Shown here one piece after another: positions 1,764 through 29,175 of a DNA stretch of 64,000 nt. The notes under the pieces are model-generated. The model did not search any database. It worked only from the letters and a program-made list of their open reading frames with translations, and had not been told where the DNA came from. A program made the position numbers and the translations under genes. Positions within the stretch are counted from its first letter, which is position 1, and each line of letters opens with the position of its first letter. The DNA is from a virus (Duplodnaviria; Heunggongvirae; Uroviricota; Caudoviricetes), in IMG/VR virus record IMGVR_UViG_3300019378_000003; one strand, given 5' to 3'.

Positions 1764-1792
1764 ATTATATCAAAATTTTTTAAAATTTTCAA
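1764..1792 (-). promoter_or_regulatory. Leftward sigma70-like promoter (TTGAAA-N17-TATAAT on the minus strand).
   Basis: The reverse complement of 1787-1792 is TTGAAA and of 1764-1769 is TATAAT, 17 nt apart, immediately upstream of the leftward gene start at 1731. Confidence 0.4.
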
Positions 1793-1803: not shown

Positions 1804-1832
1804 TTGACACGAGAAAAAATTTTTGTTATAAT
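1804..1832 (+). promoter_or_regulatory. Strong consensus sigma70 promoter, TTGACA-N17-TATAAT.
   Basis: 1804-1809 is TTGACA, followed by the 17-nt spacer cgagaaaaaatttttgt, then 1827-1832 TATAAT. GAAGGAGG follows at 1842-1849. This implies a very short (~10 nt) leader for the first rightward gene. Confidence 0.65.
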
Positions 1833-4108: not shown

Positions 4109-5851
4109 ATGGCTTTATAGGATTTATTAAACCTTTCACAAGATAGATAGAAAATTGGATTATCAGAAGAACGAGTAAGGGCTATTATTCCTGTTGCTCG
4201 CGACTATATTTCTTACTGGCGTGAATATCCAGATATGTTCGTCGACTTTATGGCGGGTAAGTGGCAAGCCAACCCGCCTAAAGAGACGCTTAATCTATTC
4301 TTCTACCAGCGAGTATTTTTGAGAGCCGCTATGCGTTATAAATACGTATATGCGGTTTTTCCGCGTGCTTATTCTAAATCTTTCCTTGCCGTTTTGATTC
4401 TTATGACTCGTGCCGTTTTATATGCCGGCTCTAAGTTATTTGTAACATCTGGTGGTAAGGAACAGGCTTCTGGTATTCTAAAAGAAAAAGTATAGGAAAT
4501 TTGTACTTTGGTGCCGGGCTTCGCAAAAGAGATTGATTGGGGCCGTGGTAAAACTTTGGAAGGTAAGGATTATTGTAAGTATATTTTTAAAAGTGGTTCT
4601 TATATTGATAACTTGGGCGCTTCTGAAAAATCAAGAGGTAAGCGTCGTCATGGCGGACTCGTTGAAGAGTGCGTTGGTGTCGACGGAACTATTTTGAACG
4701 AAGTTATTATTCCAGTTATGAACGTTTCTCGAAGATTGCCCGATGGCACTTCTGATGATAATGAAGTTCTTAATAAGAGCCAAATCTTTGTTACGACCGC
4801 AGGTTGGAAGAATACTTTTGCTTATGATAAACTTATTCAAATGCTAGTTGGTTAGATTACACAGCCTGAAAAGTTCTGTATTATGGGTGGTACTTGGCGT
4901 ATTCCTGTTCTTATGAAATTACTTGATAAGAACTTTGTGCGCGACTTGAAATTGGACGGTACATTTAATGAGTCCTCTTTTGAACGTGAATATGAATCTA
5001 AATGGTCTGGTACTATCGAAGATGCATTCTTCCGTGCAGAACAATTTGACCGCAACCGCATTCTACGTCAGCCTGAATATGAATATTCCGGACGTTCAAT
5101 TAAATCGGCATATTATGTTCTGTCTGTTGACGTTGGCCGAAAAGGTTGCGATACGGTAGTTTGTGTATTTAAAGTAACACCTTAGACTGCCGGTGTGTCT
5201 ATTAAAACATTGGTAAACATTTATACACTTCACAATGAACACTTTGAAGATTAGGCTATTGCACTCAAAAAACTTTATTATAAATATAAGGCGCGTCGTA
5301 TTGTTATTGACGCCAATGGTCTTGGTATTGGTCTTGTCGACTATATGGTAAAATCTTAGATGGACCCAGATACGAATGATATTTATCCTGACTTTGGTGT
5401 AGAAAATGATCCCGATGCTGAATATAAAAAGTTCCGCACAGATGCGTGTGAATATGATGCTATGTATTTGATTAAAGCTAATGCGCCAATCAATACTGAA
5501 GCTCATGCCAATGCGTAGACGCAACTTTCCTCTGGTAAAGTAAAAATGTTAATAGATGAACGTGTGGCCAAAGTAAAATTGCTTGGAACTAAACGCGGTC
5601 AAGAAATGAAGCCTGAAGAAAGGGCGGAATATCTTAAACCATTTACCCTTACCTCCATATTGAAAGAGGAAATGATGAATTTGCGTGAAGAAAATGAAGG
5701 CGTAAATATCATCTTAAAGCAAGCGAATAAAGGTATAAAAAAGGATAAATTTTCTGCTTTTGAATATGGTTTATACTATATTAAATAGGAAGAAGATAGT
5801 AAAAAGCGTAAACGAAAAGGAAAAATATCTGATTTTATGTTTATGAATTAA
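4109..5851 (+). CDS. terL: Terminase large subunit, 580 aa, ~9 in-frame TAG.
   Basis: Six track ORFs (4235, 4508, 4883, 5546...) are all in frame 2 and separated only by TAG. The gene ends in TAA at 5849-5851, followed by AAGGAGG plus ATG. ATPase-like N-terminus reads ...FLRAAMRYKYVYAVFPRAYSKSFLAVLILMTRAV...LFVTSGG. RNaseH-like nuclease region reads ...YYVLSVDVGRKGCDTVVCVFKV...RRIVIDANGLGIGLVDYM. Confidence 0.8.
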
Positions 5852-6232: not shown

Positions 6233-7831
6233 TTGCGAAGAAGATAGGATGAAATCCGAGCAAAAGGATTTTAGATGACACCTCGCCCAATAGACTATGA
6301 AGGCCCCATGTCTTCCATGGATTTCGCCAAGATTAGAGTTGGTCTTTAGACTCTTGATGATGCTATTTTGGATCTTGGTAGTTTAAAAAAGGGTAATGTC
6401 CGTTATACAAATAAGAATACAATTCTTAAGGCTTTGGCCGAAAGAGATTATCCATTGCTACGAGAGATTTCAGAATACTGGTTTGAAAACAGTGGTATTT
6501 ATGAACGTCTTTGTAAGTATTTTGCTTATCTATATAGATATGACTGGTATGTTGTTCCTTATGTTGAGGATGACAGCATTAAAGAAGATAAAATACTTGC
6601 TGAATTTAGTAAAGTGCTAAATTATATGGACGCTTCAAATATAAAATACATGTGTGGTAATATTGCCCTTGAAGTCGTAAAGAATGGCTGTTATTATGGC
6701 TATATTGTAGACAGCGAAGGTGGTATTACTATTTAGCAATTGCCGATTGGATATTGCCGCAGTAGATACTTTGTTGGCAATCAGCCCGCAGTTGAATTTA
6801 ATATGAAATTCTTCGACGATAAATTTCCAAACCTTGAATATCGCATGCGCGTATTGAAAATGTTCCCGCCAGAATTTGCTAAGGGTTATGTTCTTTATAA
6901 AAAGGGTAAACTCAAGGATGAAGATGGAACAGGTTCTGATGGATGGTATCTATTAGACCCAGCTTGTGCGATTAAGTTAAATATTTGCGGCACTGACTAT
7001 CCTATGTTGGTTAATGCGATTCCATCTCTTTTGGATTTGGATGCCGCGCAGGATTTAGATCGTCGTAAGACAATGCAGAAACTTCTCAAAATTATTATTC
7101 AAAAATTGCCGCTTGACAAGAATGGCGATTTGATTTTCGACGTTGATGAAGCAAAAGACATTCATAATAATGCCGTTCAAATGTTAAAGAAGGCAGTTGG
7201 TGTTGACGTTCTTACTACTTTTGCTGATGTAGAAGTTGCCGATTTGGCTGATAAGAATACTACAACTTCAACTGACGATTTGAATAAGGTTGAACGTACT
7301 GTTTATAATGCTCTTGGCGTTTCACAGAATCTTTTCAATACTGATGGTAATATCGCTCTTGAAAAGTCTATTCTTAACGACGAAGCATCTATGAGAAGTC
7401 TTATTTTACAGTTCTAGAATCTTTTAAATAAGATTGTTAGACATAAATTCCCTGGGAAGAAGAAATATAATTTCCGCGTCTTTATGTTGGAGACGACAGT
7501 CTACAACTACATCGAGCTTGCGAAGATGTATAAAGAGCAGGTTACTATTGGTTATTCCAAGATGTTGCCACAAATTGCTATGGGACATTCCCAGAGTGCA
7601 GTTATTGCTAATGCTCATTTTGAAAATGAAATTCTACATCTTTATGAAATTATGATTCCTCCTATGATGTCTTCCACTATGAAAGGTGAGGACATTTTAG
7701 GGCAAAAAGGTCAGGGGAAAAATTAGGTAAATTAGGCACAGTCTACTGAACAATCAAAAGGTGGACGTCCTGAAAAGCCGGATGGTCAAAAATCTGAAAA
7801 GACCATTCAAAATAAGGAGTCAGCCAGCTGA
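6233..7831 (+). CDS. Portal protein (candidate), ~532 aa, ~7 in-frame TAG.
   Basis: TTG 6233 lies 8 nt after GGAGG (an alternative start is ATG 6275). Track ORFs 6368, 6740 and 7484 are all frame 2. The gene ends at TGA 7829-7831. Size, position after terL and the acidic LDLDAAQDLD... segment fit a portal. Confidence 0.55.
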
Positions 7832-9987: not shown

Positions 9988-11031
9988 ATGTTAGAAAGAA
10001 ATGAACTTTTGAAATTGATGCAGGCTACTGCTAAAGCTGATCGCTCCAATCCTGTTGCTTACAGCTTTAACGGTGAGAACCTTTCTTACGAGGCTCTTAA
10101 TGAGACTCTTCGTAAGGAATTGAATGAGTACGCTGGTACTTATGCACTTTATCGTGAAAATAAGAATATGATTTTCTCCCTTATCGAGGAGACTATTGAC
10201 CTTGTTCTTCCCAAGAAGGTTATGGAAAACTATGGTCAGTTTGCAGAAACCAAAGTTTACAAGCAGGGCGACAAGCCTATCTTTACCGTGAAGGGCAACT
10301 ACCACAATCGTGCCAAGCAGTTCATTACCAAGGTTGGCTTGAATGGTATTTACGAAGTCTTCAAGCTTGGTAAAGAGCGTCCTTTCGAACTTCAGACCAG
10401 CGCTATCGGCGGAGCCGCAGCAATTGGTTTCGAAGAGTTCCTTGATGGTCGTGTTGACTTTGCAGAAGTTACCAAGATCGTTATGGAAGGTATGGATGAA
10501 CTTATCTATCGTGAGATTGCTAAGGCTCTTATGAGCTCTATCAATCAGCTTCCTCGTGCAAATCAGGTTGCCGCAGCTGGCTTTGATGAGGCTGCTTTCG
10601 ACCGTTTGTTGAGCGTTGCTTCCGCATACGGCACTCCTTCCATCTATTGTACCTATGAGTTTGCTGTTAAGATGATTCCTGCTGAAGGCTGGATCTCTGA
10701 CGCTATGCGTGATGAGAAGTGGGCAAAGGGCTACTTCGCAAACTACAAGGGCTATCGCGTTGTAATTCTTCCTCAGGCTTTCGAGGATGAAACCAACGAG
10801 AAGAAGATGGTTGATCCTGGTTATGTTTGGATTCTTCCTACCGGCCACGACAAGCCCGTTAAGGTTGCTTTCGAAGGCGATACTTTGGTTCAGGAAATGC
10901 ATACCCATGACCGTAGCCGTGAAATCCAGGTTTACAAGAAAGTTGGCGTTGGCGTAATTACCAGCCCTGACATTTGCGTATATCAGGATACCGAGCTTCT
11001 TGGTCAGATGGACGTTGTTCGCGCTATCTAA
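9988..11031 (+). CDS. Major capsid protein (candidate), 347 aa, no TAG.
   Basis: AAAGGAG then ATG 9988, ending at TAA, followed by a strong intrinsic terminator. The call rests on size, position, TAG-free coding and the terminator. No motif was verified. Confidence 0.45.
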   Translation: MLERNELLKLMQATAKADRSNPVAYSFNGENLSYEALNETLRKELNEYAGTYALYRENKNMIFSLIEETIDLVLPKKVMENYGQFAETKVYKQGDKPIFTVKGNYHNRAKQFITKVGLNGIYEVFKLGKERPFELQTSAIGGAAAIGFEEFLDGRVDFAEVTKIVMEGMDELIYREIAKALMSSINQLPRANQVAAAGFDEAAFDRLLSVASAYGTPSIYCTYEFAVKMIPAEGWISDAMRDEKWAKGYFANYKGYRVVILPQAFEDETNEKKMVDPGYVWILPTGHDKPVKVAFEGDTLVQEMHTHDRSREIQVYKKVGVGVITSPDICVYQDTELLGQMDVVRAI

Positions 11032-11054
11032 TGAATAGAGGTTTATAAATACTG

Positions 11055-11086
11055 AGGGTGGGTCTAGCACCCACCCTTATTTTTTG
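11055..11086 (+). terminator. Rho-independent terminator.
   Basis: GGGTGGGT-ctagc-ACCCACCC hairpin followed by TTATTTTTT. Confidence 0.7.
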
Positions 11087-14171: not shown

Positions 14172-15233
14172 ATGAAATTTGGCGTACGCGAAATTTGTGA
14201 CGTAGTATTACGTCGTAAGGCCGCTGGTTGGTTCGGTAAGCTTTATTTGGAAAAGGACATGCCTGTTCTTTTCTTTGATACTTTGAAGACCTCTAACCTT
14301 GAAGGCGCAGCTACTACTGTTTATGCTCAGGGTGGTAAAGGTAATCCTCGTCTTGTTGCTTGGGAAGGTGACCGTACCGTTACTTTCACTATGGAAGACG
14401 CATTGATTAGTCCTCAGAGCTTCTCTATTCTTTCTGGTGCTGGTTTCATGGATGCTTCTAGTGAAAAAGCTATCTATGTTCACCAGACCGGTCAGCTTGA
14501 AATTAGTACTGATGGCAATTTGAATTTTGAAACCAAGCCTTCTGCTGGTGAAGCTGGTAAGTTTGCAGATATGTATTTGATGCTTTTGGATGAATATGGT
14601 AATATTAATACTAACTTCATGCCTATTATGATTAAGCCTGAAGGCCGTAGTGATAATGAACCTGGTGTTTATGCAGAATCTTATCCTGTAAATGGCGAAG
14701 GCGAAAGTCTTGTTAATAAGATTAAGGCTTTCATTGTAGATTATAATGAACGTAATAAAACTGTAAATGGTTTTAAGCCATTAGAGTATACTGTTAATGA
14801 AACTCTTATCAAGCCTACTGAAGATGCCTCTGTTGAAGAAATTGCTGCTTACAATAAGGCTAAAGCTAATAACATCGTTATTGGACCTGGTACTGTAGTT
14901 TTTGTTGACTATTATGTAAAGGCTGACACTGGTGTTAAGCAGATTGATATCGAAGCTGATAAGTTTGGTGGATCTTACTATCTTGAAGCTTCTACCTTGT
15001 TCCGTGATCAGGGTACTGGTGAAGACCATCCTGCAGAGTTCGTTATCCCGAACTGCAAGGTTCAGTCTAACTTTACCTTCACCATGGCTCCTTCCGGAGA
15101 TCCTTCTACTTTCACCTTCACAATGGACGCTTTCCCGGACTATACTAAGTTTGATCGCACTAAGAAGGTTCTTGCCGCACTTCAGATTGTTGAAGACAAG
15201 GCTGGCTTCGGCGCTCTTACTGCCAAAGCTTAA
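14172..15233 (+). CDS. Major tail (tube) protein candidate, 353 aa, no TAG.
   Basis: AAAGGAGG then ATG 14172, ending at TAA, followed by a strong terminator. The gene is TAG-free and lies upstream of the tape-measure region. Confidence 0.45.
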   Translation: MKFGVREICDVVLRRKAAGWFGKLYLEKDMPVLFFDTLKTSNLEGAATTVYAQGGKGNPRLVAWEGDRTVTFTMEDALISPQSFSILSGAGFMDASSEKAIYVHQTGQLEISTDGNLNFETKPSAGEAGKFADMYLMLLDEYGNINTNFMPIMIKPEGRSDNEPGVYAESYPVNGEGESLVNKIKAFIVDYNERNKTVNGFKPLEYTVNETLIKPTEDASVEEIAAYNKAKANNIVIGPGTVVFVDYYVKADTGVKQIDIEADKFGGSYYLEASTLFRDQGTGEDHPAEFVIPNCKVQSNFTFTMAPSGDPSTFTFTMDAFPDYTKFDRTKKVLAALQIVEDKAGFGALTAKA

Positions 15234-15251
15234 TTTTTAAACGTCAATATA

Positions 15252-15289
15252 GGGAGATACTAACTTTCGTTAGTATCTCCCTTTTTTTT
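15252..15289 (+). terminator. Rho-independent terminator.
   Basis: GGGAGATACTAAC-tttc-GTTAGTATCTCCC hairpin followed by T8. Confidence 0.75.
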
Positions 15290-15317
15290 ATTATATAGAT
15301 AAAAAGGAGATGCTTAT

Positions 15318-15851
15318 ATGCGAGTAGGACAAAATTATTTTCCAAAATCTAGTTTTTTATCAATTGATAAAAATTTAGCATTAATTGTTAATAAAATGCT
15401 AGAAAATCAAAGATTATGTAAATTATTATATTATACGTAGCGAGACTGTTTAAAAGCGGAAAATTTAACGCCCAAAGAAAAATTAAGTTTAATTGATAAT
15501 TAGATTAAAATTACTCCATATTTACCTATTGATTCAGATTGTCCTATATATGTTGTAATAACTTTTAATAGATTTTTACCAAATTATAAAAATCCTGAGT
15601 TCCGTGATTTTAATATAAAAATTGATATTATTTGTCATCCTGATCATTGGCATTTAGGTAATTTTGCTTTGCGCCCATATAAAATAGCTGGTGAAATTGA
15701 TGCTATGTTAAATAAAACTAAATTAACGGGTATCGGTGAAGTAGAGTTTCAAGGTGCAGACGATTTATTATTAAATGAATAGTTGTGTGGACTTACATTA
15801 ATTTATCGTACAGTTTAGGGTGTTGAAGATTAGATTAATCCATTGTCGTAA
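15318..15851 (+). CDS. Hypothetical protein, 177 aa, 5 in-frame TAG. Sits in the AT-rich island.
   Basis: GGAG then ATG 15318, ending at TAA 15849-15851. Reads ...PIYVVITFNRFLPNYKNPEFRDFNIKIDIICHPDHWHLGNFALRPYKIAGEIDAML... Confidence 0.35.
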
Positions 15852-15866
15852 GGAGGTGCCATAAAA

Positions 15867-17108
15867 ATGGCAGGTAGTGTATTTGGAGTTTCTGTTGAAG
15901 AAGCATTTGTAAGAAGTGGTACTGCAGAAGCTATAAAAGATAACCTTACTTCAATGAATGAAGTAAATAGAAGAATATTAAATAATAGTTGTACTATTTT
16001 AGATAATACTTTAAATGAAATTACTATACTTAAAGAATAGTTTATAGGGGAAAATCGTTTATCTAAAGAATATTCTAGAAGAATAGCAACTCGTAAAAAA
16101 GATTCGACAAAAGTAGAATATGGAAGAAAGTTATCAGAATTATTACTTTTAACAAAAAGTCATAAAGCTAAATTAAATCAAAAAATTATTTATGCATTTA
16201 AATTAGAACATAAAATTTTAGATATTTTATCAAACAATTAGACATAGACTGCTTTATTTTCAATATATTTTTATGGTGAAAATCCACAAGAGATTATGCG
16301 TGGAGAAATTAAAACTTCAGATTTATATAATTCAAAATATTTATATATTGATAATGCTGGTAACATTAAATTATCTGCTAAAGTTATTTAGGCAGAAGGA
16401 TTATTTTCAAAAATAACATCTTCTCGCTCTGTAAATGGAGCAATTTCTGATGTAGTTTGGGATGAGATGTTAGCAGCAGATTTAGAGGCATTAGTAGATG
16501 AAACATATAGTTTTTTAAAAGACGTATAGAATAAATATCAAGAAATAAAAGATACTGCATCTAAAAAGCATTTAGGTAATGAATTAGATGCATTACATGA
16601 TGTAACTCGAAAATTTTCAGAAGAATCAAATGCCATTATGTCATTAATTGAAGAAAAATAGGCTGCAATGTATAATTATTTATTCTATGATTAGGGGAAA
16701 AAACCTGCAGGTCGCTTAAACAGAGGTCATTTGGCAGAAGCTTATGAACATATTTATCAAGCAAGATTGGCGGGTCGTGAAGTACCATCAGCTTATGAAG
16801 CATTACAACGTTCATTGGGCGATGATCCATGGTATATCGGTGGTGACGTAGGCAATGTATAGGTTAAAGCTTTTTTTGACAATAATGATCGTCATATCGC
16901 TAGTTATACAAGTATTATATCTTTAGGAAAAACTTTGGTGCAAGTTGTGAAAAATACTGTTAATGCTTTGCAAGAAATTGCTACCGCAGGAACAGAAAGA
17001 ATATTATTAAAATAGCAATCAAATTTTAATAAAGCAAATAAAGTATTAGAGCAATGCACCAGAAAAGAAATTGAGACTATGATGAAAAATAATTTAAAAC
17101 AATCTTGA
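15867..17108 (+). CDS. Hypothetical protein, ~413 aa, ~12 in-frame TAG. Sits in the AT-rich island.
   Basis: AAGGAGG then ATG 15867, in one frame to TGA 17106-17108. The end of the gene overlaps the -35 box of the downstream promoter. I recognise no domain. Confidence 0.35.
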
Positions 17109-17133
17109 CAGATAAAAAATTTTTTGTTATAAT
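17105..17133 (+). promoter_or_regulatory. Consensus sigma70 promoter, TTGACA-N17-TATAAT. Second copy of the motif seen at 1804.
   Basis: 17105-17110 is TTGACA, followed by the spacer gataaaaaattttttgt, then 17128-17133 TATAAT. AAAGGAG and TTG 17166 follow. Confidence 0.6.
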
Positions 17134-17165
17134 ATAATCATTGAAGAGAAAAAGGAGTGAAAATT

Positions 17166-17690
17166 TTGGCTAAAATTTCATTAAGTAAAATTACTCCAAT
17201 TAAAATTGTTGCGCCCGTATTGGTATAGATTTGTGAACAAGATGTAGAAATTATACAATATTTACCCGTACAAGAAAAATTGGCAATGATTGAACGCATT
17301 CTAAATTGGAGTATTGACACTACTGGAGTGTTAAATCCGGTAAAATTAGAAGTATATTCAGTATTAGAAATCATTTCTACTTATACAAATATTAATATTA
17401 CTGATAAGATGATGGAGAATGCTCCAAAAACTTATGATAGTTTAATGATTAATGGCGTAATTGATAAAATTATTGAAAATATTCCAGAAGATGAATATAA
17501 TGCTATTTTTGACGCTATCGAAGAATGTGCTGAAAATATTGTATCTTATTTAAATTCTTTTGCCGGTATGATGAAAACAGTCACTGATAATTATGATGCA
17601 GAAAAAATGAATGTAGAAGGTTTAATGAATGATCTAGGAGAACTTGGAAAAGATAGTTTAGTTAAAGATGTTCTTGAAAAAATTGGTTAA
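17166..17690 (+). CDS. Acidic small protein, possible tail assembly chaperone. 174 aa, 1 in-frame TAG.
   Basis: TTG 17166 is in frame with track ORF 17280-17690, through a TAG at 17226. The gene ends at TAA. The protein is acidic and lies immediately upstream of the tape-measure gene. Confidence 0.35.
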
Positions 17691-17726
17691 GTGATTTATT
17701 ATAAAAATTAAGAATTATAGAATCCC

Positions 17727-17765
17727 AAAGGAAAGATGTAAGTGAATACATCTTTCCTTTTTTTA
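17727..17765 (+). terminator. Rho-independent terminator or attenuator between the chaperone-like gene and the tape-measure gene.
   Basis: Perfect 14-bp stem AAAGGAAAGATGTA-agtgaa-TACATCTTTCCTTT followed by TTTT. Confidence 0.7.
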
Positions 17766-17787
17766 TAGAGAGAAAGGAGTTTACAGT

Positions 17788-20700
17788 ATGGCTCAAGGAA
17801 CTACTTAGTGGACTTTGTAGATTAGTGCTGACACTAGTCGAGCTAAAAAAGATATTAATAATTTAGTATAGAGCTTAAATAAAGTTAATACACTAAATTT
17901 AGATTAGCTCGGTATGTCCACACAAATTCGTGAGGCTGCGACTGCTGCGCAATAGTTAAAATTGCATTTATAGGCAGCAACTAATGTCAATACTGGTCAA
18001 TTAAATCTTGTAGAATTTAATAAAAGTATTTAGCAATCAGGATAGTCAATGGCATCGCTTATGGCTACTTTGGCTCAAGGTGGTTAGACTGGTCAACAGG
18101 CATTCCAATAGATGGCAACTACTATTGCAAATACTTAGGTGCCGATAAAACAAACAAATAAATTATTATCTAATATGATGACAACTCTTAAAAATACTGT
18201 TAAGTGGGAATTGTCATCTATGTTTATTCGTGGTTTACGCACTTCAATCACTGGCGCTATTGGATATGTTAAAGATTTAAATGGTGCTTTAAATGATATC
18301 CGTATTGTTACAGGTAAAAGTGTTGAAGAAATGGCTCGTTTTACTGATCAGGCGCGTGCTGCGGCGAGGGAATTATCAACCACAACTAAAGCATTCACTG
18401 ACGCTTCTTTGATTTATTTCCAATAGGGTGACTCGATGGAAATGGCTGCTAAGAAAGCGGCGATTACTATTAAAGCAGCAAATGCCTCTTTTGGATCTAC
18501 GGCTTCTGAAATGGCAGAACATTTAACTGCTGTTTGGAATTCTTATCAAGTTGGCGCAGAAGAGTTAGAACATTATGTTGATATAATGGCGAAGCTTGGT
18601 GCGAACACTGCAACCAGTATGGAAGAAATTGCTACTTCAATGCAAAAAGTTGCTGCTACTGCGAATACTGTTGGCGTTTCTATGGAACAAGTTTCTTCGA
18701 TTATTGCCACGGTATCTTCTGTTACTCGCGAATCTGCAGAATCAATTGGTACTTCTTTTAAAACAATTTTTGCTCGTATTGGTGACTTAAAATTAGGAGA
18801 GACTCTTGAAGACGGTGTAGATCTTGGACAAGTATCTTCTGTTTTAGATAAAATTGGAGTTTCTATTTTAGATGCCAATGGGCAAATGCGAGACATGGGC
18901 GCAATCGTTGAAGATTTAATGGGAAAATGGCAGACTATGACTCGAGCAGAGCAAACTGCTGTGGCATAGGTTGTAGCTGGTAAGCGTCAATATACTCAAT
19001 TAATTGCTTTAATGGAAAATGATGAAGCGTATAAAAAAAATAAAAGTTTAGCAGAGAATTCTGATGGTGCACTGCAAGGAATGCAAGATATTCATGCTGA
19101 AAGTGCTGAAGCTGCAGCTGCGCGCACGAAAGAATCTATTTAGACTTTATATAGTACGCTTTTAAATGATAAAGCTTTGATTGGTTTTTAGAAAACAATT
19201 AAAGGTATTGTTGATAATGTTACTAATTTAGCTAAATCATTAGGTGGTCTTAAAGGCATAGTAGGAGCAGTTGGTGCGATTTTAATGCGTACATTTAGTG
19301 GAAAAATTGCTTCTACTATTAAATCAATGGGTGCTGGTATAGCTACTTTTATGACAAATGGTTCATATAAATAGTAGTATTTACAGACTTTAGAGAGGAC
19401 TAATAGTGAATTATCAAATAGTCGCAGTTGGGGAGATACAGCTTCTTTATAGGCTACTAGCAAATTAATTGACTTAAAAAGCAAATTGCTTAATATGGAA
19501 AATTCTTTAACAACAGCACAAGCTCAGCAAATGCAGTTAGCTTTAAGTGGAGCAAGCGAACAAATTGGTACTTTAAATTAGTTAGAACAAGAATACTTAG
19601 ATGTCAAAAGAGCAATTGAATCTGGTACTAGCAGTATGGCTGGTTGGGCAGCGCAAACTTATTAGGTTAAATAGAAACATAATACGGTAAACATGACATT
19701 TAACAAATAGCTTGCAGCACAAATGAGTAGTTAGCATTTTATGAAGGGATCAGGCGACAATAGAATGTCTGCAGGAGGATTCTTTTCTGAGAATGCAATA
19801 CTTAAGGCTAATAATGGGGCGACTGCTGCGAATATGTTGCCACAAATTAATTAGTTAAATCAAATTTCGTCTATTGGACAACAAACTGCCAGAGCTTTAG
19901 AGTAGATTTAGAATCCAGCAAAATTGACTGAATAGGAATTTGCCAAAATTACACAATAGGTTGAGCAGATGAAAGCTGCTTTAAAAGGTACCGCTCGAGC
20001 AAATGCTTTAGATGGAATTACAGCAGAAACATTAAGAACAAAAGAAGGTATTAAATAGTTAAGTGACGCAATTACTTTATTAAATGAAAAATCTCAAACT
20101 GATTTTAATGGATTTACTACGGCTTTTAGGGCGGCATTGAACGCTATGCCTGATGGTGCCTTGAAAACTAGATTAAGTACTTTATTTGATGAATTTTTGA
20201 AAGATTCTGATCATGGTGCAGAAGCACTCTAGCGCTTTAGGTTACAAGCTGAGGCAGTAATGGGTAGTTTGAGTGGTACTGAATCTGCGTTAGATAAACT
20301 AAATGGAAAAATGAATCAAGCCTTTGGTGCGATTAGCAAAGGTGTTGGTACTGCAATGAGTGCAGTATCTGGATTTAATATGCTATCTTAGAGTACTTAG
20401 CAATTAGCCTCTGGTAGCGATAATTTAAGTAGTAATATCGCGACATTGTTGAGTGGTTTAATGATGATTATTTCCATTGCACCTGCTATTGGTACAGCAT
20501 TGACTACTGCGATGGGCCCAATCGGTTGGATTATTGGTGCAATTGCGGCGATTGGTGTTGCAGTTGCGGCAGTTACTGTTGGTATTAGTAAAGCTAGAAA
20601 AGAAGCGTATCAAGCTAAACAAGAATCTAAATTAGAAAAAATTTAGGAAGAAAATGAAATACAAAATGAAGAAGTAAATAATAATCATAATTTAATTAAA

Positions 20701-23700
20701 AGTTATAATGATTTATACGCAACTTATTTAGAAACTGGCGAAGGACAAGAAGAACTTGCTGCGAGCGCAAGAGCATTAGCGGATGCTTATGGATTAGTTG
20801 GCGCGAATGTATTAATCGCAAGCGGTAATTTTAAAGAGTTTAATAATTAGCTTGCTTAGCATATGGGTTTTGATCAAGAATTAAGTTATTATCGTAGACA
20901 AAAAAATACTTTAATCGGTGCTTTTGCTGATAATAGTAAAAATTCAGTTTATTAGATGAATGATTCTAATATCATGGAATTTGAAGGAGAACTAAGTCCA
21001 ACATATTCAGGACCAATGGTTGGTAGTTCTTTATATACTAGCGTGCCGAGTGAAACAGATCCATAGGTAGAACGTACTGTAGCTACGGGAGTTACTTCAT
21101 ATTATGATGCTGCGCAATAGGCTTTGGCTCTTGATCCATCTTTATTTTTAACATATGAAGGTCCTACTTCACAAGTTAAACAATATTATTCTCCTTTGGG
21201 CTGGTCGGCGAGAAATAAAAATCCCACAGGAAGACGTGTAAGTGCTGAACAGGCAGGAAATATTTATGGCTATTATGATACAATGTTTGCAGGCAATAAA
21301 GATTATGCTGATGAAGCTTTTATCGCTGTAATGAATCAAGCGCGAGACAAAGAAGGAAATCCGCTTAATATAGACTGGTAGAGTATTATTGATACAGCAT
21401 GGAATAATGATCAAGATATAGGAGAAGCTATCACAGCAGCATTAATAGAACAAAATCCTGATTGGGAAAGTGTAATATAGCTAAGCGCTTTTGAGTATGT
21501 TGATGATGGATTATCTTATGGAAGCGTTAATACAGAATTAGCTGATGTAGTAAATAAATGGAATACTAAATTTACTGACGCTTTTTTTGGTGAAAATGGT
21601 TTATTCGGACAAACAGATTATTTGCACGAAGTTCTAGGAGAAGATTTGTCGTTAGATTGGTCTTCTTTAACTGGAGAAGAAAAAGTTAAAAAATTTACAC
21701 AAATCGCGGATTCAATTGATGCTATTGATGTTGAACTGGAAGACGTAAAGCTTAAAATGAGTGAATATGACGAAAACAGTCCTGAGTATATGATGCTTGA
21801 AGATTATTATAATTATTTGCAAGGTGTATAGACTACTTTTAAAGATATTATTAATTATGATGATTATATAGCTGACGGTTCGACAGTAGCAGAAGCTATT
21901 GCCGAGATCGAAGAAGTTGAATCAATGGAAGCAAAAATTATAGCATTAAAAGCTTCTATGGGACAGTTTATGGGTCAATCAGAAGACACCATGGGATTTA
22001 ATGCATTTTTTGATGGGGTAAATAGAATGGAAGATGCTATTGATTCAACAGCGGCGTCATATGAAGAATTACAATAGTATTTAGAACAAGAAAACGGACA
22101 ATTTGTCAAAGATGCTGAAGGTAATTATAAAATATAGGCTGGAATGGAAAAAGAGTATGCTGCAGCACGAAGCAAATTAGCATCATAGTTATTATTAGAT
22201 TACACTGCATTTGATGATTATGTTTATATGTATCAAGATTTGATATCTTTATTTGATAATCAAAATGAAATTGATATTGCGGCGAATTTTTTAGATATTT
22301 TTGATATTAATTCAGTAGAAGAAGTTGACACTGCTTTTTATTATGAATTATAGCAATTCATTCAGAGAGATGCAGAAATGGCAAAGGGTATGTTGACAGC
22401 ATATCAAAATCAAAGATAGATATGGCTTAATTAGGGTTTTAATAATGACGAAATTTAGGAAAAAACACAATAGTGGTTTGATGATATTGGTGAAGAAGTA
22501 TTAGGTAAAATGATAATAGCAAATCAAGACACAGCCGCTTTTAATGCAGCAAATAAAATGAGCAATTCTGCACAAACTTGGGCTAAAGAGTTTAAAGACA
22601 ACGACGGAGAAATGTCAATTGATGAAGCAACAGATATGTACAAATAGTATGCTGAATATCAAAAAGAATTTGAGGAACACGACTTAGGTGTAATTAAATC
22701 TTGGGATGAATTTGTTGCGATGGATTATACCGAACGAGCCGCATATTTAGCAACATTAGCAGAACAATCTGAAGATAATGCTGAGCGATTAGCAGAAATA
22801 GCATTAGCTTCTGCTAGCGATGTTCGTGCGGCGTGGGAAGCGGAACATGGATATAATAGAGATTCATTTGAAACATTTCGCACAGGATATAATCAATATG
22901 CCGCAGCAGTAGCTGAAGATGGCTATAATGTAACATATGATACTGTTGATGGAAATACTGTTGCAGTAGTAAAAGATACAGATGGTCATATTATTGATGA
23001 AGATACCTTCCGTCAAAATACTGGATATACTTTTAGTGATGCAATTCAATATTAGGGAGCTTCTTCTTTAATTGCTGCAGGTAGTCAAGTTTATCTTGAG
23101 GAAGATAATGCTATAGCGACAGTTGAAGCTTTAAAATTAGTTTCTGATGGTGTTCTTACTGCGGAGGAAAAAATGACTGCAGCTTCTGACGCAGTTGCAG
23201 CTTTATCCAAAGGCTTAGAACATTTTAATGAGACAGGTCAAATTAGTGTTGAAGTATTTAAAACATTAGGCAAACTGGGAATTCAGGTTAATAAAGATGA
23301 TATAAAAAATATTCAAGATTTTATTAAATTGATGAATCAGGCGCGTTAGAAAGGTCAATAGGCTGTTGATAGTCAAATTGCTGAATATAATAAATCTTAT
23401 GCATAGCAATATGGTGCTTTTAATGTAAATTAGACTTGGGATATGTCTTTAGTTGAGACAAATGCAAACTATAAAGCACGTTATGATGCTTGGGCAAAAA
23501 TTATGGATTTAATGACTCAAGTAGAAGGTATAGATGCTGAAATTAATAATGCTAATGCTCAAATAACACAATAGCAAATTGATTTATTTGATGCATAGAT
23601 GGCATCTTTACAATAGTCTAGAGATGAATTACAAAAAACTGCAGAAGCGATGAAAGAAGCTGCGGATATTTTATCGGGTGCTATTGAAGATGGTTCTTTG

Positions 23701-26700
23701 TCTTTTGCTGATTAGGTTAAATTAGATGCAGCTGGAATTGCTGCATGGGAAGAAGGCGCTACTTATGCTGAAAGGATTGAAGCTGCTGCATTTGGTGCTG
23801 CAAAAGCAACTAATTAGGCGATGACAAATCAATTAGATTTAAATACTGCTATTGATTAGGCTGAATCATTATTTAATATTTATACTAATTTAACTAGTGG
23901 AAACATAACTTTAAAAGATAGTTCATTATTTGATTCTTCTGATAGTCTTATTTCTTGGTTAATGGATCCTCAATTTGATGCATCAGGTTTAAGCGATGGA
24001 GCAAAAAATGCGATTATTGAAGCAGATAAAATTGTTCGATAGACTTTAGATGTAAATACAGCGACTACAGGACAATATTGGAAAGCGATGCAAGATTAGC
24101 TTAAGATTATGGACCAAGAAGGAGCAGAAGCTTTAGCTTTAATTATGGCTGAAGGTAAAGACAGTATTGTTTCTTTATATAGTGAATTAGGATAGCATGA
24201 AGCAGATTTGGCAAATCAATTTGTTGAAGATTGGATGAATGCATTTTAGACTGTCGCTGATATGCGTAAATCTATTTTAATGGGTGAAGATATTAGTGAT
24301 GATTTAACTTCTAGCTTTGATAATTTTAATCAAATTGCAAATCAATATTCGGGCGGTGGTGCGGCTCTTGTAGCAGACCAATTAAGTGGTAATTTAGATT
24401 TAGCTAAATTAACTCTTCCCGATCCAGATAAAATGGTTGAAGGTATTCGTGATGCTCGCGGTCTTGGTAAAAATGATACTATTTTTACTACAGATTCTTA
24501 TGGCACAAAACATGCATCTACTTGGTGGGAAGATATTGGTGCACGAATGGGTATGGACCGTAATGCAACCAAAGCAGATGGTACGGCCATGTATGCAGAA
24601 GGTGCAGACGGTGATGCGGAATACGTAAAGGCAGTACAAGAAAGAATCACTCCATAGTTAGAGACTTTACTTAAAGGTTATGATTTAACTGGTACAGATT
24701 TTGAGACTATTGGTGATGTTATTTTAGGATATTTTGCAGGAGCGCCAGAAGCAATTGCTATATTAAATGATGCTGCGAATAAAACTTATGAAAATTCAGA
24801 AGCTTATGGTGAATATCTTGAAAAGGAAAATATTTTAAGAGAAGCAGAAGCAGCATATTAGACAGAGGTTGAAGAACAACAAAAAATTCAAGATGAAGCT
24901 CTTGGCTTTGCAGATGCAACAGAAGCTATTCATGCTTTAGCTCCAGAGGATCGTGATGCGGCTAGTATTGCATCTATTTTAGAATAGCAAGGTATTACTT
25001 AGGATGATTATATTGCTGCTCTTCAAGAAAAAGGTTATGATGTTTCTAGTTTAGAAGATATCGCAGGATTGAGTAATGATGCATTATTAGGTGCGGAAGA
25101 TGCTTTTTAGACTGATGCTACTGAAGCAGGTGCTATTATTATTTCTGCTGGCGAAGCTTTTAAAGCAATTGTAACCGGAGAGGGAGCATTAGGTGAAGAT
25201 GGTACTGGTATTACTCTTGGCGATACAACTTTTACAGAAGGTGCTGGATTCGCTGAAACTAGTGATGCAGTATAGCCAATGATGGAAACTGTTACCGAAA
25301 ATACTGAAGCACAAACTGTTTTAGCAGAAGGAATTTCAACAGTTGATCCTAGAGAAGATTGGGAAACTGAAATGGGACATTTTGGTTTAGATGCTAAAGA
25401 AGTAGATGAACTGGGTGATTCAATTCAAAAAATGGCTAAAGAATCTGAATTGCTTGGAGATAATTTAGAGACTGATGCTGAAGCAGCGGATAAAGTCGCA
25501 AAAACTTTTAAGCGTTATAATAAAGCTGTTGATCAAGTTGCAGATAGTTATGATGATTGGAAGAAGGCTTTAAAAGGTAATAATATTGATGAATAGGCTA
25601 AAGCATTAAAAGAAATGGATAAAGCTTTTTCAGATATGCTTGATTTAGATTATGATAGCTTATCAGATGATTTTGTCCAAAATGCAGAAAATCTAGAATT
25701 AATGAAAGAAGCTGCAGAAGGCAATGAAGAAGCTTTTGATTAGTTGCAAGCAAAAGCAGCGGCAGATTTTATTATTGAAGGACAAGTTCAAACAGAATTT
25801 GATCAAGAATCATTTGATGCTGCGGCCATGGAATTGGCAACTGCTTATGATGATTTGCCAATTGGAGAACCAATTACACTTGGTGAAAACACTAATGTAA
25901 GCCCTGCTTTCTGGGCAGCGTGCGAACAAATTTTACAAGGTTTTGCAGCAACTGCAGCGGGTGCAGCGCAAGCAGAATAGGCTTTTGCTTCTCTGGGATA
26001 TGACGCAGAAGTAGAAGTTGTTCCACAAGAAACTCCTGGATATTCTATTTCTTATCCAGTATTTACACAAGGTCCTTCTGTTGATGTTGGTGGTCCTGGG
26101 CAAACTATGGCTACGGTTGAAGCTTCTACTGCTACTATTGACGTTCCTGGTTATACGCAAAATGTTTTAGCTATTAAATCTATTACCCCAAATGGCGCAG
26201 GCTTTGGCGGAAATGTCAGAGGCGGCGGTGGAGGAGGAGGTGGAGGTGGAGGAGGAGGCTCCAAAAAGTCCACTCATGATAAACGTAAAGCTCCAGAACG
26301 GTATCATGAAAATACTAAAAATTATGATCGAATTTCTGAAGCACTTGAAAAAGTAAATAAAGCTAAAGATAGAGCTTTTGGTAAATCTTATCTTAAAAAT
26401 CTCGAGAAAGAAAGAGAATTATTAAATGCTCAAGTAAACCTCCTTAAACAAAAAGAAGATGAAATTCAAAATTATTATGATGAAGATTTAACTAATCTTC
26501 AAAATGAACTTAATGCTTTAATGGGTGTATTAGGTGGAGAAAATATTGCATTAGATATTGATCCTAATACTTTAAATATTAATAACTGGGAAGAAATTGA
26601 AGCTAAAATTACTGAATTATATAATAAAAAAGCTGATTTAAAAATGTCTGATGAAGAATGGGAAAAAATTACAGAGCAATTAGAAAAATATGAAGAAATG

Positions 26701-29175
26701 AGAGATCAATACGAAGAGACTGTTGCTCTTCTTGCTGAGAACGGTTTAACTATTGAAGATCTTTTAAATCAAATGTCCGAGCTTGCTCTTGAAGAAATTA
26801 CTTATAAAGTTGAATATCAAGTTGAATTAAATGACGCAGATTTAGAACTTCTTGAATATTATCAGGAAGTTTTTGAAGATGACTTAGGAAGCGCAAGTGA
26901 ATTAATGGCCAATCTTTCTAATTAGGCAGGAATTGCTCAAAGTAATTTAAGCATTTTGGAAACTGGATTAAACGAGCTTAATGCGGCTTATGCAGCTGGT
27001 GAAATTAATGCAGCAGATTATCAAGAAGGTATTGCAGATATTAATAGTCAAATGATAGATTAGTTAAGTGAATTGCATGATATTCAAGATGAAATTGCAG
27101 AATTGTATGCTGATACTCTGGATATGGCTCAAGATGAAATGGATGCTCATTTAGACCATTTAGATCATATTGCAGATGTTATGGAGCATTATGCAGAAAT
27201 TTTCGATTTAATGGGTCAAGGTACAGGTCGAGCTTATAAGAATTCTTTGATGGATATTTAGATTGCCGCGAATAAAGAATCATTAACTGCATAGTCAGAT
27301 TTGTTTAATGAATTACTTGAACGCAAAAAAGAATTTGAAGCAAATATAGATGAAAATGGTAATTTCTCCACAGAACTTGAATAGCAACAATATGAAGCAT
27401 TACTTGAAACCTTAACAGAAGTTCATGGCAATATGATGGATGCTGTTGCAGAAGGCATGGATCTTCTTGCTGCAAAATATGAAAATACTATTGAAAAGAT
27501 TTTTGAAGATTTTGAAGAAAGAATGCTTGGTGCCAATCAGTCAATAGCTGATGTGGCAGATAAGTATGAATACTATCAAGAAACTCAAAATCGTCAATTA
27601 AGTGCGGCGCAAGAACTTTATGAAATGTCTAAATTAAATCGTTAGATAGAGCAATCTATTGAAGATAGTACCACCAAAGCTAATAAATAGATCCTTAAAG
27701 ATTTACAAGCTCAAATTAATGCAAGAGCAGAATTGAAAGATATGACTGAATATGATATTGAAATGATGAACTTACAATATCAATTAGTATTAAAACAAAT
27801 GGCTCTTGAAGATGCTCAAAATGCAAAGAGTGTAGTAAGACTTACTCGCGATAATGATGGTAATTATGCTTATCAGTATACTGCTGATGATGAAAAAGTT
27901 GCTTCTGCATATCAAGAATATGAAGATGTATTACAACAAATTAATGATCTTGCTTCTGGACGAGTTGGAGAACTTGAATAGGCAATGTTGGATGCACAGC
28001 AAGAATATGCTGATGCCGCAAAAGAAATTGCTTTGGATATGACTTTAACTGAAACCGAGCGTCAAGCAAAATTAGAAGAATTGGCTAAGAGATATGAAGA
28101 AACTTTACTTTATATCCAAGAAGAATATGGCTACGCTACGAGCGATTTAAAGAATAATTTGGCAACTACTTCAGATTGGTATAATACTACTCTGATAGAA
28201 GACAGTAATGCTGCGCAAGAACAAGTAGCAGATATGATTAAAAATGCTGAAACTTGGGCACAAGAATATGCTAATATGTTAACTGGTGAAAATGGTTCTG
28301 TTCTAAGCACTTGGAAAGATTATGCTGATGCTATTGCTACAATGTCTGAATTTATGGAAACTGCCTTAACAGAAGAAGGTATGAATAATTATCAAGCTGC
28401 CGCAGAGGCTGCAGGTCAAGCTGCCGCGGATGTAGTAACTATGCTTGGTGATGAATTAACAGATATTAATGCTGTAACACAAGCTTGGAAAGACTAGGCT
28501 GCTGCGATGGACGAAGCAATTAAACGTTATGAAACTTTGGCCGCAAAGATGAATGATGTTATGCGCATGCTTGCTGAATTGGAAGAGGCTAAAGGGCCTG
28601 CATTAGGAGATGCTTCTAGTAATACTTCTGATGATGGTAAAGATGTTTCTTTCGCTGATCCTGAAATTCTTGCAGCAGTATTTGGAGAAGAACTTGCTTC
28701 TCAATATACTGAAGGCAAAATTACTTAGGATTAGTTACTTGCAGAAATTATTGGCACAGTAGATAAAACGCAAGTTCAATGGGATGATTTAGAAGATGCC
28801 ATGTAGGTATTGTGGGAATATCAATTAGACAAAGATAAAGATGAAACTAATGAAGAATATAAAAAAGCAAAAGAATTAATTGATGCCACTGGATTGAATT
28901 TAGAAGAAATTTGGGCATAGCTTGAAGCGCAAACGTAGGCTGAAATGGCGAGTATGTCTTCTTGGGCTATGGCATAGACTTTGATTAAAGATTCTACAGT
29001 TAATTATAATACTACTTAGAATATTACAATGACAAATGAATTCCCGAACGTTGAAAGTATAGAAGATATTAAATAGGCATTTGAAGAATTATTCTTATAT
29101 GCTTCTTAGTATGTTGATAGCGATAAAGCTAAAAAAACTTCTGCTAGTGGCGGAGGTGGAGGAGGAGGGCATTAA
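17788..29175 (+). CDS. Tail tape measure protein, 3795 aa. About 100 in-frame TAG, all in one frame.
   Basis: Sixteen track ORFs from 18139 to 28728 all share frame 1. The checked junctions contain only TAG. The gene starts at AGAAAGGAG plus ATG 17788 and ends at TAA 29173-29175 inside a terminator hairpin. The N-terminal ~400 aa match the TP901-family tape-measure core (...GKSVEEMARFTDQARAAARELSTT...SIGTSFKTIFARIGDL...). A hydrophobic segment lies at 20446-20560. A Gly13 run lies at 26218-26260. Confidence 0.8.

What the first reader, a model, noticed from the sequence alone, without database searches (positions are those of the whole stretch)
15300..17766. An AT-rich, TAG-dense three-gene island sits between the major tail protein and the tape-measure gene.
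The chaperone position is where siphoviruses usually carry a G/GT frameshift pair. Here the region has visibly lower GC than its flanks. It has the highest TAG density in the window (no standard-code ORF of 60 aa or more in 1.8 kb). It encodes a 177-aa and a ~413-aa protein with no recognisable features. The second gene ends inside the -35 box of a consensus promoter, which drives a 174-aa acidic protein. A perfect 14-bp-stem terminator then sits immediately before the tape-measure RBS. I see no slippery site for a G/GT frameshift. The island could be an acquired cassette (moron or anti-defence) or a divergent chaperone module.
Basis: partly seen in the sequence, partly recalled or inferred. 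Interest (0 to 1): 0.55.

Follow-up and report, generated by a model that had tools for sequence, protein, structure and literature searches.

The report
Conserved tail-assembly genes, not an island
The AT-rich three-gene stretch between the tail-tube and tape-measure genes is a conserved tail-assembly block of an SPbeta-like gut phage that reads TAG as glutamine, so it is ordinary phage biology, though with tidy transcriptional punctuation and one fast-evolving gene.

Summary
The three genes (177, 413 and 174 aa under code 15), the perfect sigma-70 promoter overlapping the stop codon of gene 2, the two 14-bp terminators and the lowest GC in the window are all real. TAG density is not the highest; the tape-measure gene exceeds it. 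Two of the three proteins do have recognisable families.

This is not an acquired island. Six related metagenomic contigs carry the same order: tube, YomW-like, a 393-519-aa protein, YomO-like, tape measure. They also carry the same GC drop, promoter and terminators. A non-recoded relative keeps the last three genes and the punctuation. Third-position GC matches the 30 kb of tail genes downstream.

- Gene 1 is a YomW/phrog_6123 virion protein that lies upstream of the tube gene in SPbeta, Enterococcus phages and non-recoded relatives.
- Gene 3 is an acidic YomO-family protein. Its fold gives weak matches to tail assembly chaperones, and it has no frameshift partner. Its own promoter and terminator probably set a high chaperone-to-tape-measure ratio.
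- Gene 2 has no known fold. It sits in a fixed slot but is unalignable between otherwise similar phages. Its family keeps an invariant G/E...D...QxK motif.

Verdict: a new member of a known kind, of modest interest.

The parts
14172..15233 (+). Tail tube (major tail) gene; left boundary and context. 353 aa, no TAG, GC3 0.32.
   Evidence: phrog_2729 E 1.9e-54. Orthologues carry PF27173 YomU_Tube. Best pairwise match among SPbeta proteins is YomU.
15251..15282 (+). Intrinsic terminator after the tube gene: 14-bp stem followed by a T8 run.
   Evidence: RNA fold -22.5 kcal/mol, z -8.4. A hairpin plus T-run stands at the same place in all 7 relatives, with different stem sequences, and in Enterococcus phage VRE9_2.
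15318..15851 (+). Gene 1: YomW-like virion structural protein, 177 aa, 5 in-frame TAG. RBS AAAGGAG at 15303-15309.
   Evidence: phrog_6123 'virion structural protein' E 3e-21. tblastn hits to Enterococcus phages and Phass-1. The 98%-identical orthologue in L007 and five other orthologues carry PF27256 YomW. Collinear alignment with SPbeta YomW.
15867..17108 (+). Gene 2: 413-aa, mostly helical protein of unknown fold, 9 in-frame TAG. It occupies a fixed but hypervariable slot. Family motif: G287, E291, D327, Q332, K334.
   Evidence: No Pfam, PHROG, NCBIfam or PDB match. 6 close homologues and 62 cluster representatives. Invariant residues from alignment A3. AF2 pLDDT 66, no PDB fold match. Slot occupants in L009, L010 and L011 are unalignable.
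17105..17133 (+). Sigma-70 type promoter TTGACA-17-TATAAT with TG extended -10 and an A6T6 spacer. The -35 box contains the TGA stop of gene 2.
   Evidence: 12/12 match. One of only two perfect matches in 64 kb; 8 matches at <=1 mismatch against 1.4 expected. TTGACA is invariant and the -10 box and spacer are conserved in 8 of 8 loci.
17166..17690 (+). Gene 3: YomO-like acidic protein, 174 aa, TTG start (alternative GTG at 17157), 1 TAG. Probable tail assembly chaperone without a frameshift partner.
17727..17760 (+). Intrinsic terminator: perfect 14-bp stem, 6-nt loop, T7 run. It sits directly before the tape-measure RBS (GAGAGAAAGGAG, about 17769-17780).
   Evidence: -17.6 kcal/mol, z -5.8. 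A hairpin plus T-run with a different stem sequence stands at this position in every relative. The conserved GAGAGAAAGGAG RBS follows it in the six recoded contigs.
17788..29175 (+). Tape-measure gene; right boundary and context. 3795 aa, 92 in-frame TAG.
   Evidence: PF10145 PhageMin_Tail E 3.8e-29, 102 bits against a 33-bit cutoff. Match to SPbeta YomI E 1.9e-18.

Best explanation
The region is the tail-assembly segment of the late structural operon of an SPbeta-like, TAG=Gln recoded siphovirus. It was inherited with the rest of the tail module and was not acquired from outside.

The operon starts at a promoter of the same class at 1804. Strong terminators after the capsid gene (11053) and the tube gene (15251) cut transcription down after the two proteins needed in hundreds of copies. 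Those two genes are also TAG-free and use GC-richer codons.

What reads through encodes three proteins.
1. A YomW-like low-copy virion protein, probably a neck or tail-end component. In this clade its gene has moved from upstream of the tube gene to downstream of the tube terminator.
2. A fast-evolving helical protein of about 400 aa. I take it to be a tail-assembly accessory factor acting with the chaperone on the giant tape measure.
3. A YomO-like acidic protein that I take to be the tail assembly chaperone.

The chaperone gene has its own consensus promoter and is closed by a terminator just before the tape-measure RBS. This should produce far more chaperone than tape measure. Transcription would thus achieve the chaperone excess that lambda-like phages obtain through translational control of G, GT and H. 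No GT-type frameshift fusion is made.

Shown: the gene models, family memberships, synteny, conservation of the punctuation, the composition analysis and the absence of a frameshift ORF.
Inferred: chaperone activity of gene 3, the roles of genes 1 and 2, and the stoichiometry argument.
For: Synteny: the order tube, YomW, 393-519-aa protein, YomO, tape measure occurs in L005, L007, L009, L010, L011 and L012. The non-recoded L003 has tube, 403 aa, YomO-like, tape measure.

Flanking proteins are 47-79% identical to the window's.

Homologues of genes 1 and 3 lie in the structural modules of Enterococcus phage VRE9_2 and SPbeta.

Composition: GC3 is 0.13-0.16, the same as the downstream tail genes (0.15-0.19). 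The tube and capsid genes have GC3 0.32-0.47 and no TAG. The same GC drop is seen in the five relatives measured.

Punctuation: the terminator, promoter, terminator arrangement is conserved in all 8 loci, with differing hairpin sequences. The terminators fold strongly. The promoter is of the same class as the one at 1804.

The HK97 record shows the same operon punctuation: terminators after the head gene, around the tail gene and just before the tape measure.
Against: - There is no sequence or profile similarity to lambda G, SPP1 gp17.5 or HK97 gp13.
- The defining G/GT frameshift is absent.
- In Enterococcus phage VRE9_2 the YomO homologue is not adjacent to the tape measure and lacks the promoter and second terminator.
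- Gene 2 has no detectable function. Its extreme divergence is unexpected for a factor that contacts conserved partners.
- No expression data exist.
Confidence: 0.6

Rival explanations
1. Only gene 2 is an exchangeable accessory cassette. It would be a hypervariable protein, possibly packaged with the tail and delivered into the cell (anti-defence or another effector). Related phages would swap it by recombination at the conserved flanking sequences. Genes 1 and 3 would remain core tail genes.
For: - The slot is fixed but its occupant is unalignable between phages whose neighbouring YomW and YomO proteins are 53-67% identical.
- Similarity switches partner across the slot. YomW and gene 2 are closest to L005 (79% and 50%), whereas YomO and the tape measure are closer to L009 (67% and 52%).
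- The promoter block next to the slot is conserved at the DNA level.
- Invariant polar residues (E291, D327, Q332, K334) persist across a family with about 20% mean column identity, which suggests an active or binding site.
- In SPbeta the interval between tube and tape measure is filled with assorted non-tail genes.
- HK97 carries a moron in this interval (PMC3594210).
Against: - A protein of similar size (393-519 aa) is always present.
- A profile comparison links two of the groups collinearly, though weakly (probability 31%, E 5e-4). This fits rapid divergence of one helical protein rather than replacement.
- No match to any nuclease or other enzyme family.
- The model shows no PD-(D/E)xK-like sheet.
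- The gene is TAG-rich and sits in the late operon, so it cannot act early unless it is packaged.
Confidence: 0.2
2. The promoter, gene 3, terminator unit is a moron-like accessory gene, analogous to HK97 gp15 (superinfection exclusion). It would be expressed by host RNA polymerase independently of the late operon. The real chaperone would then be gene 2.
For: - It has the classic moron anatomy: its own consensus sigma-70 promoter, a single ORF and its own terminator. It occupies the position of HK97 gene 15, between the chaperone and tape-measure genes (PMC3594210).
- It has only one TAG, so it could be translated largely without suppression.
Against: - The gene is present in every relative examined, with 205 homologues found and PF27287 on nearly all of the 120 listed. 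It also occurs in Enterococcus phages and SPbeta, without the promoter in VRE9_2. It therefore fails the 'present in one phage only' criterion.
- It is soluble and acidic, with no membrane segment in the model.
- Its only named fold relatives are chaperones.
- The single TAG lies at codon 21, so unsuppressed translation would still be cut short.
Confidence: 0.12
3. The whole three-gene block is a horizontally acquired foreign island, as its low GC suggests.
For: It has the lowest GC of any 2.5-kb window in the 64 kb, and terminators stand at both ends.
Against: - The same block, order and GC profile occur in all relatives of the clade.
- GC3 is identical to that of the neighbouring tail genes.
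- Genes 1 and 3 belong to families found in the structural modules of this wider phage group.
- TAG usage is typical of the phage.
Confidence: 0.03

Closest known systems
Tail assembly chaperones gpG/gpGT of lambda, gp13/gp14 of HK97 and gp17.5/17.5* of SPP1
   Different: - No -1 frameshift and no T-like extension.
- No sequence or profile similarity.
- Its own promoter and terminator replace translational control.
- A separate protein of about 400 aa precedes it.
Bacillus prophage SPbeta structural module (YonB, YomZ-YomU, YomO, YomI) and Enterococcus phages VRE9_2/EF1/EF5
   Same: The same families occur: capsid YonB, YomX, YomV, tube YomU, YomW, YomO and a PhageMin_Tail tape measure. A terminator follows the tube gene in VRE9_2 as well.
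   Different: - In those phages YomW lies upstream of YomV and the tube gene.
- In VRE9_2, YomO follows the tube and is separated from the tape measure by two other genes. In SPbeta many unrelated genes fill the interval.
- There is no consensus promoter before YomO in VRE9_2.
- Neither phage is recoded.
HK97 gene 15 moron
   Same: A transcription unit with its own promoter and terminator that sits just upstream of the tape-measure gene. The flanking operon is punctuated by terminators after the head and tail subunit genes (PMC3594210).
   Different: - The HK97 moron is unique to a few phages, encodes a 62-aa membrane protein and is expressed from the prophage.
- The unit here holds a conserved 174-aa soluble acidic protein present in all relatives.
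TAG-to-glutamine (code 15) recoded gut phages, e.g. Phass-1 and crAss-like phages
   Same: In-frame TAG is concentrated in late and structural genes and absent from the most highly expressed ones. TAG aligns with Gln in non-recoded relatives (PMC10607447; bioRxiv 10.1101/2021.08.26.457843).
   Different: This phage has an SPbeta-like siphovirus structural module. Only gene 1 has a detectable Phass-1 homologue (44% identity). No suppressor tRNA lies in this 64 kb.

Membership tests
Tail assembly chaperone (gpG/gpGT type) | Gene lies between the major tail (tube) gene and the tape-measure gene | tested here: met
   Gene 3 (17166-17690) ends 97 nt before the tape-measure start. The same holds in 7 relatives.
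Tail assembly chaperone (gpG/gpGT type) | Programmed -1 (or other) frameshift near the 3' end that yields a longer GT fusion | tested here: not met
   No alternative frame stays open for more than 13 codons after any in-frame XXXYYYZ heptamer, and no sizeable alternative-frame ORF extends past the end of any of the three genes. The Enterococcus homologue has none either, and SPbeta yomO/yomN share only a 38-nt +1 overlap.
Tail assembly chaperone (gpG/gpGT type) | Small acidic protein | tested here: met
   174 aa, pI 4.26, net charge -15.5. Homologues have pI 4.3-5.4.
Tail assembly chaperone (gpG/gpGT type) | Fold or sequence similarity to characterised chaperones | tested here: inconclusive
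Tail assembly chaperone (gpG/gpGT type) | Binds the tape-measure protein and is absent from the mature virion | not testable with these tools
   Needs pull-down, co-folding or virion proteomics.
Pfam PF27287 YomO / phrog_30570 | Significant match to the family model | tested here: met
   phrog_30570 E 4.5e-11 on the window protein. Nearly all of the 120 listed homologues (of 205 found) carry precomputed PF27287, including one 98% identical over 140 aa and one 88% identical. The local Pfam copy lacks this model, so the window protein was not scanned directly.
Pfam PF27256 YomW / phrog_6123 (virion structural protein) | Significant match to the family model | tested here: met
   phrog_6123 E 3e-21 over residues 10-166. 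The orthologue 98% identical (L007) and five others carry PF27256. Collinear alignment with SPbeta YomW.
Moron (Juhala/Hendrix sense) | Own promoter and terminator around the inserted gene | tested here: met
   Met for gene 3 only: promoter 17105-17133 and terminator 17727-17760. Genes 1 and 2 have no promoter of their own.
Moron (Juhala/Hendrix sense) | Present in one phage but absent from its relatives (extra DNA between conserved genes) | tested here: not met
   All three gene positions are occupied in six related contigs. Genes 2 and 3 are also present in the non-recoded L003.
Moron (Juhala/Hendrix sense) | Base composition differs from surrounding genes in a way that implies foreign origin | tested here: not met
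   Total GC is lower (0.276), but GC3 of 0.13-0.16 equals that of the downstream tail genes. The same profile is seen in the five relatives measured.
PD-(D/E)xK nuclease superfamily (considered for gene 2) | Conserved acidic and lysine residues (E...D...(D/E/Q)xK) on an alpha-beta-beta-beta-alpha-beta core | tested here: inconclusive
   E291, D327, Q332 and K334 are invariant in 50 diverse members. However, the D-to-QxK spacing is only 4 residues, the AF2 model has no sheet there (pLDDT <50), and no nuclease Pfam family was hit by any of the 50 members.

The most novel reading that the evidence does not exclude
Gene 2 may mark a hypervariable 'slot' in SPbeta-like gut phages, occupied by a tail-associated, possibly injected protein with a conserved G/E...D...QxK catalytic-looking centre. 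Phages would exchange these occupants by recombination at the conserved promoter sequence next to the slot. If so, a diversifying effector or anti-defence locus would be hidden inside the tail-assembly operon.
Probability: 0.1. Interest if true: 0.6.

Novelty: new member of a known kind. Interest (0 to 1): 0.3.

Why it matters
The main value is corrective. A striking AT-rich, TAG-interrupted stretch in a recoded phage is core tail-assembly machinery, not a foreign island. Its composition contrast comes from codon optimisation of the neighbouring high-copy tube gene and from the amino-acid make-up of the tape measure.

Two modest points go beyond that.
- A whole clade of large gut siphoviruses appears to make its tail chaperone without the near-universal G/GT frameshift. 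Instead the gene is bracketed by a consensus promoter and a terminator. This gives a testable transcriptional route to the chaperone-to-tape-measure ratio.
- The 400-aa protein next to it is an unannotated family in a fixed but extremely fast-evolving slot. It would be worth a structure or a knock-out in a culturable relative.

Tried and rejected
- Gene 2 gave nothing in Pfam, PHROGs or NCBIfam. PDB sequence searches with single proteins and with family profiles found nothing for any of the three genes.
- tblastn of gene 2 and of the slot occupants from L009 and L010 against 50,697 phage records found no match.
- The AF2 model of the gene 2 orthologue was only moderate (pLDDT 66). Foldseek against the PDB gave no hit with E <= 0.001, only generic helical bundles.
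Close database orthologues were used instead.
- hhalign of the YomW, YomO and gene 2 family profiles against lambda FII/Z/U/V/G/T, SPP1 gp15-17.5 and HK97 gp6-15 gave probabilities <2% throughout.
- hhalign of the gene 2 family against single L010 and L011 slot proteins was not significant. Family against family reached only 31% probability.
- SPbeta YomM, considered as a counterpart of gene 2, looks like a recombinase by sequence inspection and is unrelated.
- No paralogues of the three genes exist in the window.
- Rfam found nothing above threshold in 14.9-18.1 kb.
- The window contains no tRNA.
- A literature search for YomW, YomO or YomU found no functional study.
- The nuclease idea for gene 2 was kept only as a low-probability reading.
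Full report
**What the window is.** Translated with the standard code, the + strand from about 1.85 kb onward is broken by TAG codons. Reading TAG as a sense codon gives a continuous run of phage structural genes:
- terminase, 4109-5851
- portal, 6233-7831
- capsid, 9988-11031
- tube, 14172-15233
- a 3795-aa tape measure, 17788-29175
- very large tail proteins downstream.

In the four best-conserved genes compared with a non-recoded relative, TAG aligns with glutamine at 12 of 21 sites, with lysine or glutamate at most of the rest. Code 15 is therefore justified. No tRNA gene lies in these 64 kb.

**Checking the observation.**
- 15318-15851: 177 aa, 5 TAG
- 15867-17108: 413 aa, 9 TAG
- 17166-17690: 174 aa, TTG start, 1 TAG.

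The family consensus begins MAKISL, which supports the 174-aa start.

GC of 15300-17766 is 0.276, against 0.370 and 0.362 in the flanks. It is the lowest of 616 windows of that length, though only slightly below windows at 29.2 and 39.4 kb.

The promoter TTGACA-17-TATAAT at 17105-17133 is a 12/12 match with a TG extension, and its -35 box contains the TGA stop of gene 2.

The terminator at 17727-17760 has a perfect 14-bp stem (-17.6 kcal/mol, z -5.8). An even stronger one at 15251-15282 follows the tube gene (-22.5 kcal/mol, z -8.4).

On the + strand no standard-code ORF with a start codon reaches 60 aa between 15240 and 17279.

Two statements fail:
- TAG density is not the highest in the window. 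The region has 14 in-frame TAGs per 1.8 kb, against 20-22 in the tape-measure gene.
- Two of the three proteins do have recognisable families.

**Identity of the flanks.** The 353-aa protein upstream matches phrog_2729 (E 1.9e-54), and its orthologues carry Pfam YomU_Tube. The 3795-aa protein carries PhageMin_Tail (E 3.8e-29) and matches SPbeta YomI (E 1.9e-18). 'Between tube and tape measure' is therefore correct.

**Gene 1.** It matches phrog_6123 'virion structural protein' (E 3e-21). It has tblastn relatives in Phass-1 (44% identity) and in 140-kb Enterococcus phages (26% identity). Its orthologues in six related contigs carry Pfam YomW, and it aligns collinearly with SPbeta YomW.

In SPbeta, Enterococcus phage VRE9_2 and the non-recoded contigs L003/L004, this gene lies between the YomX-like and YomV-like genes, upstream of the tube gene. 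In the recoded clade it has moved to just after the tube terminator. Its exact role was not resolved. A neck, tail-terminator or tail-completion role is inferred only from its ancestral position. Profile searches against the PDB, Pfam and the model-phage neck proteins were negative.

**Gene 3.** It matches phrog_30570 (E 4.5e-11). A search found 205 homologues, and nearly all of the 120 listed are annotated PF27287 YomO. It is acidic (pI 4.26).

AlphaFold gives a confident model of a 72%-identical orthologue (pLDDT 80.5, above 90 over most of residues 20-120). The fold is a beta-hairpin followed by a helical bundle.

Against BFVD the significant hits are uncharacterised siphovirus proteins. 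Of the 13 weaker hits that carry an informative name, ten are called 'tail assembly chaperone'.

No frameshift partner exists. No alternative frame stays open for more than 13 codons after any slippery heptamer, and none opens a sizeable extension past a gene end. The Enterococcus homologue has no overlapping ORF either.

I conclude that gene 3 is probably the tail assembly chaperone, of a non-frameshifting type. The chaperone activity itself is an inference.

**Gene 2.** It has no hit in Pfam, PHROGs, NCBIfam, the PDB or isolated phages. It does have full-length homologues: six by word-indexed search (40-96% identity) and 62 cluster representatives by exhaustive profile search. The two members whose genomic context could be read occupy the same slot.

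Across 50 diverse members the mean column identity is 20%, yet G287, E291, D327, Q332 and K334 are invariant. N285, A292, S316, W322, G326 and V333 are nearly so.

The AF2 model (pLDDT 66) shows a long helical hairpin, a small beta domain and further helices. It has no PDB fold relative.

In contigs L009, L010 and L011 the neighbouring YomW and YomO proteins are 53-67% identical to the window's. The protein in this slot (519, 418 and 393 aa) cannot be aligned with it by BLAST. A family-to-family profile comparison links the window's family with the L011/L003 family collinearly but weakly (probability 31%, E 5e-4).

The E...D...QxK pattern recalls restriction-endonuclease-like motifs. That resemblance is my recollection, not a test. 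The spacing is too short, the model has no sheet there and no nuclease family is hit. I keep it only as a low-probability reading.

**Is it an island?** No, for four reasons.
- The order tube, YomW, slot protein, YomO, tape measure recurs in six contigs, five of them between 27 and 157 kb long. A non-recoded relative has tube, 403 aa, YomO-like, tape measure.
- In the five relatives measured, the tube gene has GC 0.39-0.44 and the next three genes 0.25-0.34.
- In the window, GC3 of the three genes (0.13-0.16) equals that of the next 30 kb of tail genes (0.15-0.19). The step up into the tape measure lies in codon positions 1 and 2 (Ala+Gly 0.19 against 0.08-0.13).
- The step down from the tube gene reflects that gene's higher GC3 (0.32), as with the capsid gene (0.47). 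Both are TAG-free.

The contrast therefore separates high-copy from low-copy structural genes. It does not separate native from foreign DNA.

**Regulatory anatomy.** All eight loci compared have the same three elements:
- a hairpin plus T-run after the tube gene
- a TTGACA-17-TATAAT promoter between the slot gene and the YomO-like gene
- a hairpin plus T-run after the YomO-like gene.

In the six recoded contigs the second hairpin is followed directly by a conserved GAGAGAAAGGAG ribosome-binding site for the tape measure. The hairpin sequences differ between loci while the structure persists, which argues for function.

The -35 hexamer is invariant, and the A/T-tract spacer is conserved even where the upstream coding sequence is unalignable.

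The promoter has a near-twin at 1804-1832, at the head of the structural operon, and a one-mismatch copy at 33023.

Enterococcus phage VRE9_2 shares only the post-tube terminator.

HK97 shows the same punctuation, with terminators after the head gene, around the tail gene and just before the tape measure. There the promoter-gene-terminator unit in front of the tape measure is the gp15 moron (PMC3594210). However, the unit here holds a gene that every relative has, which fails the defining criterion of a moron.

**Most likely mechanism.** Transcription from the 1804-class promoter is attenuated after the capsid and tube genes. Read-through supplies the low-copy YomW-like protein and the slot protein. 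The internal promoter boosts the chaperone gene. The terminator behind it limits tape-measure and distal tail expression.

A 3795-aa tape measure implies a tail several hundred nanometres long, using the usual figure of about 1.5 Å per residue from general knowledge. It would therefore need many chaperone and tube copies per tape-measure molecule. This is an inference from anatomy and no expression data exist.

**History.** Similarity to relatives switches partner across the slot. YomW and gene 2 are closest to L005 (79% and 50%). YomO and the tape measure are closer to L009 (67% and 52%) than to L005 (48% and 38%). This is consistent with recombination at or near the conserved promoter. It leaves open that gene 2 is an exchangeable element within an otherwise core block.

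**Verdict.** The 'island' interpretation is wrong and the 'divergent chaperone module' interpretation is broadly right. The block is a new member of a known kind of system. Its noteworthy details are a non-frameshifting, promoter- and terminator-bracketed chaperone gene and an unannotated hypervariable neighbour. Interest is modest.

Noticed in passing
window 1804-1832 (+), 1764-1792 (-), 33023-33051 (+): There are further promoters of the same class, TTGACA-N-AAAAAATTTTT-TGT-TATAAT. A perfect copy sits at the start of the + strand structural operon, facing a one-mismatch copy on the - strand. Another one-mismatch copy lies inside the 2038-aa ORF. In all, 8 matches at <=1 mismatch were found, against 1.4 expected.
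   Followed up: partly
window 15318-29175 compared with L005 and L009: Similarity switches partner between gene 2 and gene 3. YomW and gene 2 are closest to L005 (79% and 50%). YomO and the tape measure are closer to L009 (67% and 52%). This suggests a recombination junction at the conserved promoter.
   Followed up: partly
window 14172-15233 and 17788-22287 compared with L007: Contig L007 is 96-98% identical in the YomX, YomV, YomW, gene 2 and YomO proteins, but only 77% in the tube protein and 70% in the tape measure. This points to mosaic replacement of the tube gene, or of its inserted domain, in a very close relative.
   Followed up: no
window 9988-11031 and 14172-15233: The capsid and tube genes contain no TAG, use CAG rather than CAA or TAG for glutamine, and have GC3 of 0.47 and 0.32, against 0.13-0.19 in the tail genes. 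Each is followed by a strong terminator (11053-11079, 15251-15282).
   Followed up: partly
window 1-64000: ARAGORN found no tRNA gene in the 64 kb, so no suppressor tRNA either, although about 240 in-frame TAG codons are used. The suppressor must lie elsewhere in the genome, or recoding depends on another factor.
   Followed up: no
window 17788-29175: The 3795-aa tape measure has a run of 13 glycines about 1,080 residues before its C-terminus and ends in seven glycines plus a histidine. Orthologues are 3316-3802 aa.
   Followed up: no
L008 (SPbeta) 41316-42219, - strand: SPbeta yomO and the next ORF (yomN) overlap by 17 nt, with yomN in the +1 frame. That frame is open for only 38 nt into yomO, so a canonical G/GT arrangement is doubtful there too.
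   Followed up: partly
window 692-1752, - strand: A short block of leftward ORFs with higher GC (0.40-0.46) abuts the divergent promoter pair at about 1.76-1.83 kb. This is probably the edge of a different, non-structural module.
   Followed up: no
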